From assembly GCF_054482595.1 (NCBI RefSeq), contig NZ_CM137008.1: 64,000 bases of DNA. One strand, written 5' to 3'. The position numbers are program-made. Position 1 is the stretch's first letter; each line of letters begins with the position of its first letter. Of this stretch, positions 3,001-5,832 are shown one piece after another.

Positions 3001-5832
3001 CCCTGGAGGAGGTAAAACTTCCGGGTGACAAAACCTACCGAGCGGCTTTGGTAGAACCACCCGCCCGTGAAGTGCTTGTGCGTACCCCGGCATCTCTACG
3101 GCAACGCCTACCGCGAAAGTTCGATTATGCCGCTCGCGATGAAGCCAACCGCAAGCTGGGCCGGGCAGGGGAGCAGTGGGTGATTGGCTACGAACAGCAA
3201 CGCCTGACCGAGCTCGGCCACCCAGAGCTTTTTCAGCGGCTGGATTGGGTGTCCGACACCCAGGGAGACGGTGCGGGGTTCGACATCCTGTCGTTCGAAG
3301 AGGACGCCCATGAGCGCTTCATCGAGGTGAAAACCACCAATGGCGGGGTAGGCTCGTCTTTCTTGGTCAGCCACAACGAACTCGAATTCTCCAAGGAGGC
3401 GGGCGATCAATTCCATCTGTATCGCGTGTTCCAGTTTCGGGACGGTCCGCGCCTGTTCACGCTACCCGGCGACCTCAGCCAACATGTGCATCTCAAGCCG
3501 ACGGACTACCGGGCGAGTTTCCGGAGTTTGGTGGGGTAAAGGCAGGGTTCTGTTGAGCCGAATGGCTGTGTGCGGCCGATTCTGTTGAAAAAGTAGCGGC
3601 CTCCCCATGCCGTTGGCAAAATTGCTTTGTCAGCGAGCGTGGGGGCGAACAGCATGATGGGACAGTTACCGGGAGGACAGCAGCGCCTGTTCTACTCGTT
3701 CAATCTGGAAGATCACGTCCCGGCCCAACATCTCCTGCGCAGCATCGACCAGTGCTTGGATCTCAGTGATCTACGTGCCTACCTGGCAGATTTCTATAGC
3801 CCCATCGGGCGTCCCTCGATTGACCCGGAGTTGATGGTGCGCATGCTGGTCGTCGGCTACTGCTATGGCATTCGTTCCGAGCGGCGATTGTGCGAAGAGG
3901 TGCACCTGAACCTGGCCTATCGCTGGTTCTGCCGGTTGGGTCTGGAAGACGAAGTCCCCAATCACTCGACCTTCTCGAAGAATCGCCATGGGCGTTTTCG
4001 TGACAGCGATCTATTCCGCTGGTTATTCAATGAGGTGCTGCGGCGCTGCATGGCAGCCGGCCTAGTCAAGGGTGAAGGTTTCGCCGTCGACGCCAGCATC
4101 ATTAAGGCGGATGCCAGCCGGCAACGTGGGGTGGCGGGAGATGAGGTCGATTGGAACGATCCAAAGCTCAGCAGCCGCGCAGTGCGCGAGTACCTCGAAG
4201 CCCTTGATGAAGAGGCGCTGGCTGAGGCTCTTCCCAAGAAAATTTCGCTCACTGATCCTCAGTCCCGTTGGACAGCAGCGCCAGGTGGCCCGGCCTTTTT
4301 TGCCTACTCCACGAATTACCTGATCGACACTGAGCACGGTGTGATCATGGACGTGGAAGCTACCCCGGCGCACCGTACCGCCGAAGTCGATTCGACTAGG
4401 ACGATGGTCGAGCGTGTCGAGGCGCAGTTCGATCTCACACCGGAACGCCTTATCGGCGATACCGCTTATGGCACCGCCCCGATGCTGGCCTGGATGGTCG
4501 AAGAAAAGGACATCGAACCGCATGTGCCGGTGTGGGACAAGACCGAGCGCAAGGACGACAGCCTCTCCAGTAACGACTTTCACTGGAGTCAGGACGCCAA
4601 TGAATATCGCTGCCCAGCCGGCAAACCGCTACGCAGTGAATGGCGCGCCTTCACCCAGCAAAGGTCGCGGGTAACTAAGGCCAAAACCGTCATTTACCGC
4701 TCCAGCCAAACCGACTGCGCCACCTGCCCGTTGAAAGCGAAATGCTGCCCCAACACGCCGAATCGGAAGATCGTCCGCAGCATCCATGAGGCTGCCCGCG
4801 ACGTGGCTCGACGCATCGCCAAGACACCGGAGTACCTCGTCTCTCGCTGCGAACGAAAGAAGGTGGAGATGCTTTTCGCCCACCTCAAACGGATCATGAA
4901 ACTCGACCGTTTACGACTGCGTGGCCTAACGGGTGCCACTGACGAATTAACCTTGGCTGCGATGGTGCAGAACCTGCGCCGCATGGCCAAGCTTTTGCCT
5001 CAAGGGCCACCGCTGACGGGATAGGTATGCCTGCTACGAGCAGAAACCCTCAAATTAACCCTTAAACCTGAGCAAGGACGCTCAGTGAAACGCCGGAAGG
5101 CAACTTGAAGTGGCTTGCAGCCACTTCGACAGCAGGCACACCTGATCGGCAGGCTGCCGCTAAAGCTACTTTTTCAACAGAATCGGCCGATTTGTGCCGG
5201 TCGTCAAGGACCGCTTCGGATCACTCTCAACCGGATCGCGGGCCAGCTGATTTGCTAAAACCCGCGCCAAACTCAACGAAGGATTTCGCATGATCCGTTT
5301 TTTTTGGCGATCACGCTCGGCCTGATGGTTGGCTGCTCGTCGAGTTCAAGTTCGATCTGATCAGTGAGCGGTAGCGCAAGTGGATCGCCTCAGCCAAGCA
5401 GCGTTGTTGCCGGCGGCCGGAAGAAAGCCTTGAACTAGTAGCGGAAAGGATGAAACTTTATTTTTACGATTCTCAGCATTTTCCAAGGTTGAGCGAAAAT
5501 TAGGATGATACTTTAATGATTCCGGCCTCCATCCCCACAAAACGCTTGCAGATGGCAGAATTGAAATAAGTCATTGTTTTAAATGGATTTTTGCAGGAAT
5601 TGCTACGTTGCAGGGTCCTGTAGTTAGGATGACACTTTATTTTCCTCCCACAGGCCTCGTGATACGCCTATTTTTATAGGTTAATGTCATGATAATAATG
5701 GTTTCTTAGACGTCAGGTGGCACTTTTCGGGGAAATGTGCGCGGAACCCCTATTTGTTTATTTTTCTAAATACATTCAAATATGTATCCGCTCATGAGAC
5801 AATAACCCTGGTAAATGCTTCAATAATATTGA

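What the first reader, a model, noticed from the sequence alone, without database searches (positions are those of the whole stretch)
3574..5190. IS1182-family element inserted 34 bp after the putative nuclease gene
Inverted copies of a 25-bp sequence delimit an element of about 1.6 kb carrying a single 465-aa transposase, and GC-rich DNA continues on both sides. This suggests the element inserted into the foreign block before or after its capture, and it may have helped mobilise the block.
Basis: seen in the sequence. Interest (0 to 1): 0.3.

Follow-up and report, generated by a model that had tools for sequence, protein, structure and literature searches.

The report
Known insertion sequence ISCfr1, boundaries corrected
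The element is ISCfr1, a well-known IS1182-family insertion sequence that rides inside a widespread gentamicin/ampicillin resistance module; it is ordinary, but its true ends are 5 bp inside the reported repeats, and it lies exactly where DNA from two different sources meets.

Summary
A perfect 25-nt inverted repeat (3573-3597 / 5165-5189) encloses one transposase gene. The element is ISCfr1 (IS1182 family): 1 nt different from the pCTX-M3 prototype and 100% identical to the copy in the E. coli O157:H16 Santai chromosome.

The true element is shorter, at 3578-5184 (1607 bp, 20-bp inverted repeats), with a 4-bp target duplication GGCC on each side. An independent ISCfr1 copy flanked by TGCC, with seven matching empty sites, proves this.

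The surrounding "foreign block" (1091-5652) is the published aacC2-tmrB region. I find it is the terminal part of the Tn7-like transposon Tn6411. It includes the transposon's working end (5441-5652), which abuts a Tn2/blaTEM-1 remnant. The other side is cut by IS26.

So ISCfr1 did not bring the block to this site, and nearly all sequenced copies share this one insertion. Homology to relatives does stop exactly at the GGCC on both sides: Stutzerimonas-like DNA on the left, a conserved transposon-end module on the right. ISCfr1 therefore probably helped join these two pieces earlier (about 0.6).

Known element in a known context; low interest.

The parts
3578..5184 (+). ISCfr1 proper (1607 bp), IS1182 family
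   Evidence: It is 99.9% identical to pCTX-M3 and 100% identical to E. coli Santai. The ends are defined by an independent copy flanked by TGCC and by seven empty sites.
3578..3597 (+). Left terminal inverted repeat, 20 bp, GATTCTGTTGAAAAAGTAGC
   Evidence: The same 20-mer ends every copy and relative examined.
5165..5184 (-). Right terminal inverted repeat, 20 bp, perfect complement of the left one
3574..3577 (.). Left copy of the 4-bp target duplication GGCC
   Evidence: The 4-bp duplication is proven for ISCfr1 at another site (TGCC). A 94.7% relative in the integron 5'-CS shows the same with GGCC, and its empty site holds a single GGCC.
5185..5188 (.). Right copy of the 4-bp target duplication GGCC
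   Evidence: Same evidence as the left copy. Homology to IS-free transposon-end relatives begins here.
3654..5024 (+). Transposase gene, 456 aa from the ATG (the longest ORF, from TTG at 3627, is 465 aa); F432L relative to the prototype
   Evidence: Pfam domains DUF772, DDE_Tnp_1 and DDE_Tnp_1_6. NCBIfam NF033551 IS1182, 438 bits. RefSeq CDS coordinates. The single difference is at nt 4949.
2403..3539 (+). Upstream DUF3883 / NOV_C (ScoMcrA_N) putative nuclease gene. Together with orf228 (2125-2352) it is 92% identical in DNA to Stutzerimonas chromosomes.
5189..5440 (.). GC-rich inner part of a conserved Tn7-like end module
   Evidence: Present at 97-99.6% identity, without ISCfr1, in four metagenome contigs that carry four different cargoes.
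5441..5652 (-). Terminus of the Tn7-like transposon Tn6411: terminal TGTGGGAGGAAAATAAAGTGTCATCC plus three spaced TnsB-binding repeats at 5447, 5502 and 5626
   Evidence: Repeats. Identical to the published Tn6411 IR and TnsB sites 6, 5 and 4 (PMC11232968 Table S2). Tn6411 in p201330-IMP ends here and has a 5-bp duplication CCTAC.
271..1090 (+). IS26, the left boundary of the block in this window
   Evidence: 14-bp terminal repeats at 271-284 and 1077-1090; annotation of the matching Santai region.
5653..6705 (+). Tn2 remnant with blaTEM-1 (5845-6705), the right-hand neighbour of the block
   Evidence: The literature describes this junction (PMC7096625).

Best explanation
**Shown: what the element is.** It is ISCfr1, a single-gene DDE insertion sequence of the IS1182 family. 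It occupies 3578-5184, has 20-bp terminal inverted repeats and carries a 4-bp GGCC target duplication. It can transpose in enterobacteria and prefers the centre of a short palindrome-like site, roughly CYGCTTYT-GGCC-nnnnGCGG.

**Shown: its context.** In this window it is a passenger. It sits in the aacC2-tmrB region, which is the end portion of the Tn7-like transposon Tn6411.

**Inferred: how the block got here.** A Tn6411-like element transposed into Tn2 just upstream of blaTEM-1. IS26 then removed the rest of the transposon. IS26, Tn2 and plasmid traffic spread the remnant, and here it lies in an E. coli chromosome beside the ETT2 secretion genes.

**Inferred, about 0.6: an earlier role.** ISCfr1 marks a chimeric junction. 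One copy had inserted downstream of the DUF3883 gene in a Stutzerimonas-like pseudomonad. Another had inserted at the inner edge of the transposon-end module. Recombination between the two copies, or a two-copy composite followed by loss of one copy, joined the resistance-gene segment to the transposon.
For: **Identity**
- establish the family and the ISCfr1 match.

**Ends and duplication**
- The chromosomal copy L010/L058 reads CTGCTTTG-TGCC-[IS]-TGCC-AAATGCTG.
- Seven IS-free sites read CTGCTTTG-TGCC-AAATGCTG.
- A relative in the integron 5'-CS has a single GGCC in its empty site.
- ISPsp5 in pADP-1 is flanked by GGTC.

**Passenger status**
- About 730 plasmid records share the same left junction and about 640 the same right junction.
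- The window has one copy.
- The block's borders are IS26 and the Tn6411 end.
- The same border at 5652 has a different neighbour in Acinetobacter.
- Tn6411 carries a 5-bp duplication.

**Chimeric junction**
- Stutzerimonas homology spans 2126-3577 and stops at GGCC, after which Stutzerimonas continues AAAAGCGG.
- Four IS-free contigs hold 5185-5652 preceded by CCGCTTTT (CTGCTTCT in L052) and then by unrelated cargo.
- The window's own flanks fit the target motif poorly, whereas both inferred parent sites fit it well.
Against: - No IS-free version of this exact locus was found, either in plasmids or in metagenomes. The order of events is therefore inferred, not observed.
- The left-flank comparators are only 92% identical, and they diverge from each other 11 bp past the GGCC. 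This spot is a natural boundary of variable DNA in any case.
- The target motif rests on about seven sites and was partly defined from the parent models.
- Neither the reciprocal product nor a second ISCfr1 copy at the other edge of the captured segment was found.
- Published accounts state the opposite direction, from plasmid module into Tn6411 (PMC11232968).
Confidence: 0.85

Rival explanations
1. Simple insertion. The DUF3883 gene's downstream DNA already adjoined the transposon-end module at this GGCC, and ISCfr1 later inserted there because it likes such sites. It played no part in assembling the block.
For: A matching GGCC lies on both sides, as expected for one clean insertion. The site sits at a natural boundary of variable DNA in both comparator sets. 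The IS family favours GGCC-centred sites.
Against: The 8 bp CCGCTTTT that precede GGCC in three of the four IS-free end modules (CTGCTTCT in L052) are missing from the window's left flank. Both homologies break at the very 4 bp that the IS duplicated. The window's flanks fit the target motif poorly, at 3/8 and 2/8.
Confidence: 0.3
2. ISCfr1 itself carried the resistance block to its present position, as a composite or one-ended transposon.
For: The IS is intact, and the prototype allele has transposed in an enterobacterial chromosome.
Against: The window holds only one copy. Neither end of the IS coincides with a border of the block. The borders are IS26 at 1090/1091 and a Tn7-like terminus at 5652, which abuts Tn2.
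Confidence: 0.03
3. The element is 1617 bp with 25-bp inverted repeats starting CGGCCG and no target duplication. Its ends are listed this way in a published table.
For: A perfect 25-nt repeat is present in the window. PMC11232968 Table S2 lists ISCfr1 ends beginning CGGCCG.
Against: The chromosomal copy has GTGCC...TGCCA at those positions, and its empty site keeps one TGCC. ISPsp5 has GGTC there.
Confidence: 0.03

Closest known systems
ISCfr1 (IS1182 family), first described on Citrobacter freundii plasmid pCTX-M3
   Same: The 1617-nt span differs by 1 nt. Gene, inverted repeats and flanks on both sides are the same as in pCTX-M3 and about 640-730 other plasmids.
   Different: One amino-acid change, F432L. 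I place the ends 5 bp further in on each side than the commonly listed CGGCCG ends.
The aacC2-tmrB region (aac(3)-IId - tmrB - orf192 - orf228 - orf1182 - ISCfr1 next to a Tn2 remnant), as in pEl1573 and many IncL/M, IncF and IncHI2 plasmids
   Same: Same genes, same order and same junction with Tn2 (PMC7096625).
   Different: Here IS26 has cut into tmrB and inverted the aac(3)-IId part, and the module is chromosomal beside ETT2.
Tn6411, a Tn7-like transposon of Pseudomonas aeruginosa and Acinetobacter
   Same: Window 1090-5652 matches the terminal 4.6 kb of Tn6411 at 99.9%, including the terminal repeat and three TnsB-binding sites.
   Different: The window lacks the tnsABCDE genes, the other end and the remaining roughly 32 kb. 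The published view has the module entering Tn6411 from plasmids. The shared terminus argues the reverse.
ISPsp5 (pADP-1) and the unnamed 94.7% relative (WP_065285146.1) found beside tmexCD-toprJ and in integron In992
   Same: Same length, same 20-bp ends, 4-bp duplication and GGNC-centred targets.
   Different: They diverge by 5-7% in DNA. The relative is often labelled ISCfr1 in papers, but it is a distinct sequence.
IS1272 (IS1182 family, staphylococci)
   Same: Same family, and it also targets inverted-repeat structures (PMC5678879).
   Different: IS1272 is reported to replace the target repeat without any duplication. ISCfr1 inserts at the centre and duplicates 4 bp.

Membership tests
IS1182 family | Transposase matches the family's curated model above its cut-off | tested here: met
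   NCBIfam NF033551 scores 438.2 bits against a cut-off of 270. The next best model, IS5_4, scores 146 bits.
IS1182 family | DDE transposase with an N-terminal DUF772 domain and a C-terminal DDE_Tnp_1_6 domain, encoded as a single ORF | tested here: met
   Pfam PF05598, PF01609 and PF13751 all score above their gathering thresholds. One ORF lies between the ends.
IS1182 family | Terminal inverted repeats and a length of about 1.3-1.95 kb (range from my memory of the ISfinder family description) | tested here: met
   20-bp perfect inverted repeats and a length of 1607 bp.
IS1182 family | Short or absent target duplication; some members target palindromes | tested here: met
   A 4-bp duplication is shown by occupied versus empty sites. 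Flanks are palindrome-like. The family's palindrome targeting is cited in PMC5678879.
ISCfr1 (same element rather than a new IS) | Near-identity to the prototype. ISfinder's isoform rule is roughly over 95% DNA identity, from memory. | tested here: met
   1 mismatch in 1617 nt against pCTX-M3 NC_004464.
ISCfr1 (same element rather than a new IS) | Match to the ISfinder reference entry, including its listed ends | not testable with these tools
   ISfinder is not available here. A published table lists ends beginning CGGCCG.
Tn7-like transposon end (Tn6411), for window 5441-5652 | Terminal 5'-TGT and several spaced TnsB-binding repeats | tested here: met
   TGTGGGAGG... read on the minus strand at 5652. 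Three repeats are present, against 0.07 expected by chance. They are identical to the published sites.
Tn7-like transposon end (Tn6411), for window 5441-5652 | 5-bp target duplication at the two ends of the complete transposon | tested here: met
   CCTAC lies on both sides of Tn6411 in p201330-IMP. This cannot be tested in the window, where the other end is gone.
Tn7-like transposon end (Tn6411), for window 5441-5652 | tnsABC(+D/E) genes present in the element | tested here: not met
   They are present in p201330-IMP but absent from the window's block, which is only an end fragment. The window holds a remnant, not a transposon.

The most novel reading that the evidence does not exclude
ISCfr1 was the tool that captured the aac(3)-IId-bearing segment from a Stutzerimonas-like pseudomonad into a Tn7-like transposon. 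This happened through two insertions into GGCC-centred palindromes followed by recombination between the copies. The enterobacterial aacC2-tmrB module then arose when that transposon jumped into Tn2, which is the reverse of the published direction. If so, the history of a globally spread gentamicin-resistance module could be traced back to its environmental source.
Probability: 0.5. Interest if true: 0.4.

Novelty: already known. Interest (0 to 1): 0.25.

Why it matters
The element and its setting are textbook parts of enterobacterial resistance regions, so the finding itself adds little. Three by-products are modestly useful.
- **ISCfr1 ends.** They are commonly drawn 5 bp too wide, because the usual insertion site has a palindromic GGCC duplication. 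This affects how new insertions and duplications are annotated.
- **Origin of the aacC2-tmrB region.** It ends in a working Tn7-like terminus, which points to Tn6411-like transposons as its source rather than its recipient.
- **Homology breaks.** The exact breaks at the IS give a testable route from a Stutzerimonas-like chromosome to clinical plasmids.

Tried and rejected
- **Empty site in plasmids.** A reconstructed 417-nt query gave no record covering more than 52%.
- **Empty site in metagenomes.** An exact 26-mer gave 0 hits.
- **Viral contigs.** A scan for ISCfr1-type ends gave 0 hits.
- **Integron empty site in the window.** Not present. It was found instead in pCTX-M3.
- **Is 5189-5440 a decayed IS remnant?** I found only chance 8-12-nt matches to ISCfr1, so I rejected this.
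- **Aeromonas pS44-1.** It looked like a possible empty site because its match ran 21 nt into the IS. It is in fact a truncation by a mercury transposon.
- **Acinetobacter p255n_1.** I searched it for the other Tn6411 end and for tns genes. None was found in the parts read.
- **GGCC upstream of aac(3)-IId in Tn6411** (ACGCTT-GGCC-AAAAAGCC). I considered it as the other border of a captured unit. There is no comparator, so it remains open.
- **Host of the chromosomal ISCfr1 site.** It is not an E. coli chromosome, and the species was not identified.
- **Access problems.** Partridge et al. 2012 (PMC3486572) is not held. The accession MN961671.1 needed the NZ_ prefix.

Full report

Yes. The repeat finder reports a single perfect 25-nt inverted repeat, CGGCCGATTCTGTTGAAAAAGTAGC, at 3573-3597 and 5165-5189. 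The inner 20-mer occurs at only those two places in the 64-kb window, against 0.02 expected by chance.

One long ORF lies between the arms, 3627-5024, which is 465 aa counted from a TTG. RefSeq annotates the same gene from the ATG at 3654, giving 456 aa. The upstream gene ends at 3539.

GC content is 58% to the left, 58% inside the element and 56% to the right. The right-hand stretch reaches only 5440, after which 5441-5652 drops to 40%.

**2. What is it?**

The protein carries DUF772, DDE_Tnp_1 and DDE_Tnp_1_6. It scores 438 bits on NCBIfam's IS1182 model, whose cut-off is 270.

The DNA matches 818 plasmid records, 751 of them at 99% identity or more, and these are annotated ISCfr1. It differs from the pCTX-M3 prototype at one base, window 4949, which gives F432L. 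It is 100% identical to the copy in the chromosome of E. coli O157:H16 strain Santai.

The gene order in Santai matches the window:
- IS26
- truncated tmrB
- two small ORFs
- the DUF3883 gene
- ISCfr1
- blaTEM-1
- an IS1 remnant
- the ETT2 type III secretion genes

The window is therefore very probably that chromosome or a near relative.

**3. Where are the true ends?**

A look-up of contigs encoding the exact ISCfr1 transposase found a second, unrelated insertion site. It lies in a 5.3-Mb chromosome, between a 2OG-Fe(II) oxygenase gene and a GFA-family gene.

The occupied site reads ...CTGCTTTG TGCC [GATTCTG ... CAGAATC] TGCC AAATGCTG.... Seven contigs of the same locus without the IS read ...CTGCTTTG TGCC AAATGCTG.... 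ISCfr1 is therefore 1607 bp, begins GATTCTG and duplicates 4 bp of target.

Relatives behave the same way:
- A 94.7% relative in the integron 5'-CS is flanked by GGCC on both sides. The uninterrupted 5'-CS in pCTX-M3 has a single GGCC.
- ISPsp5 in pADP-1 is flanked by GGTC.
- A relative in an Aeromonas plasmid is flanked by GGCC.
- A 186-bp miniature derivative in Pseudomonas sp. CAN1 is flanked by GGCC.

In the window the element is therefore 3578-5184, with GGCC at 3574-3577 and 5185-5188. GGCC is its own reverse complement and the next bases happen to be C and G. That stretches the true 20-bp repeat to an apparent 25. A published table lists the ends the same way, starting CGGCCG (PMC11232968 Table S2).

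Across the sites, the flanks resemble a palindrome, roughly CYGCTTYT-GGCC-nnnnGCGG. This fits the reported tendency of some IS1182 members to target palindromes (PMC5678879). The motif rests on few sites and should be treated as provisional.

**4. What is the surrounding block, and what moved it?**

The literature already names it the aacC2-tmrB region. It is described as aacC2-tmrB-orf192-orf228-orf1182-ISCfr1 replacing tnpR-res-tnpA of Tn2, with IS26 alongside (PMC7096625).

Two observations sharpen this description.

First, the AT-rich stretch 5441-5652 holds three 18-nt direct repeats. Read on the minus strand, it ends TGTGGGAGGAAAATAAAGTGTCATCC. That is, letter for letter, the published terminal repeat and TnsB-binding sites 6, 5 and 4 of the Tn7-like transposon Tn6411.

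Second, window 1090-5652 aligns at 99.9% with the terminal 4.6 kb of Tn6411 on P. aeruginosa plasmid p201330-IMP. In that plasmid the transposon carries tnsABCDE and is flanked by a 5-bp duplication, CCTAC. The same border at 5652 has a different neighbour in an Acinetobacter plasmid.

The right border of the block is therefore a working transposon terminus abutting Tn2. The left border in this window is IS26.

From this I infer that a Tn6411-like element transposed into Tn2 upstream of blaTEM-1, and that IS26 later removed most of it. The Tn6411 papers propose the opposite direction. A functional end with its TnsB sites cannot have been donated by the plasmid module. In addition, the same end module exists in four metagenome contigs that have no aacC2-tmrB genes at all.

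ISCfr1 touches neither border and is present once in the window. It did not carry the block here.

**5. Is ISCfr1 just a passenger?**

For the later history, yes. About 730 plasmid records share the identical left junction and about 640 the identical right junction. The same holds across chromosomes and plasmids of many genera. I found no IS-free version of the locus in plasmids or in metagenomes. This is one old insertion being copied along with its host DNA.

The earlier history looks different.
- **Left side.** Relatives of the DUF3883 gene in representative genomes are 92% identical in DNA over window 2126-3577 in Stutzerimonas stutzeri V81 and S. nitrititolerans GL14. The alignment ends at the left GGCC. 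The Stutzerimonas sequence then continues AAAAGCGG, which is unrelated to the window's right flank.
- **Right side.** Four metagenome contigs hold window 5185-5652 at 97-99.6% without ISCfr1. Their match begins at the right GGCC. It is preceded by about 8 conserved bases, CCGCTTTT (CTGCTTCT in L052), and then by four unrelated cargoes. The DNA outside the transposon end also differs in all four.

Both homologies therefore stop at the very four bases that the IS duplicated. The 8 bases that normally precede GGCC in the end module are missing from the window.

The window's own flanks also fit the target motif poorly, at 3/8 and 2/8. The two inferred parent sites fit it well. This comparison is partly circular, because the motif was refined using those same sites.

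The simplest reading is that two ISCfr1 copies inserted separately, one after DUF3883 in a pseudomonad and one at the inner edge of the transposon end. Recombination between them, or a two-copy composite followed by loss of one copy, then fused the two DNAs. I put this at about 0.6.

The rival is a plain insertion at a junction that already existed, at about 0.3. It is helped by the fact that this spot is a natural boundary of variable DNA in both comparator sets.

**6. Comparison with the known, and verdict.**

The element meets every IS1182 feature I could test, and it is ISCfr1 itself. The context is the published aacC2-tmrB region. The boundaries are 5 bp too wide on each side. The mobilisation idea fails for the present site but is plausible for an earlier capture step.

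Novelty: already known. Interest is low, at 0.25. The small additions are the corrected ends and duplication, the palindrome-like target, the Tn7-like terminus that reverses the assumed origin of the module, and the exact homology breaks that suggest how the module was assembled.

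Noticed in passing
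window 5441-5652: An AT-rich stretch with three 18-nt direct repeats that ends TGTGGG... on the minus strand. It is the terminus, with its TnsB-binding sites, of the Tn7-like transposon Tn6411, and it abuts Tn2. This suggests that the enterobacterial aacC2-tmrB module came from a Tn6411-like element, the reverse of what the papers propose.
   Followed up: yes
window 1-1090: IS26 lies at 271-1090. The first 168 nt of the window are the start of aac(3)-IId on the minus strand. An IS26-mediated inversion has therefore split tmrB and flipped the gentamicin-resistance gene relative to the rest of the module, as in E. coli Santai.
   Followed up: partly
window 5653-9332 and beyond: A Tn2 remnant with blaTEM-1 (5845-6705) is followed by an IS1 fragment and then ETT2 type III secretion genes. 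The resistance region is therefore inserted in the chromosome at the edge of ETT2.
   Followed up: no
L038 1300-1485 (Pseudomonas sp. CAN1): A 186-bp miniature element with ISCfr1-type terminal repeats and no transposase, flanked by GGCC on both sides. It looks like a MITE derived from this IS group.
   Followed up: no
L003, L004, L007, L008; L049 22200-23824: The IS beside tmexCD-toprJ and inside integron In992 is often called ISCfr1 in papers, but it is only 94.7% identical (protein WP_065285146.1). Several copies share one flank but not the other, which suggests recombination between copies.
   Followed up: partly
L010, L011, L058 versus L054-L057 and L059-L061: A chromosomal ISCfr1 insertion between a 2OG-Fe(II) oxygenase gene and a GFA-family gene. 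It is shared by many assemblies of a heavily sequenced species with a 5.2-5.5 Mb genome that is not E. coli. It shows that the IS is active outside the resistance module.
   Followed up: partly
L049 6790-6830 (Tn6411, just upstream of aac(3)-IId): A tandem duplication of about 24 nt (gtagagtgatatctcgataggtata) lies just upstream of aac(3)-IId, and an unoccupied palindrome-like site, ACGCTT-GGCC-AAAAAGCC, follows the neighbouring DJ-1/PfpI gene.
   Followed up: no
window 5290-5360: A short ORF after a run of eight T's would encode a lipoprotein-type signal peptide (…LMVGCSSSS…) if read through a frameshift. It may be a decayed gene inside the conserved transposon-end module.
   Followed up: no
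L002 3150-3175 (Aeromonas salmonicida pS44-1): Here ISCfr1 is cut off 21-22 nt (26 nt counted from the CGGCCG of the 25-nt repeat) into its left end by a mercury-resistance Tn3-family transposon.
   Followed up: yes
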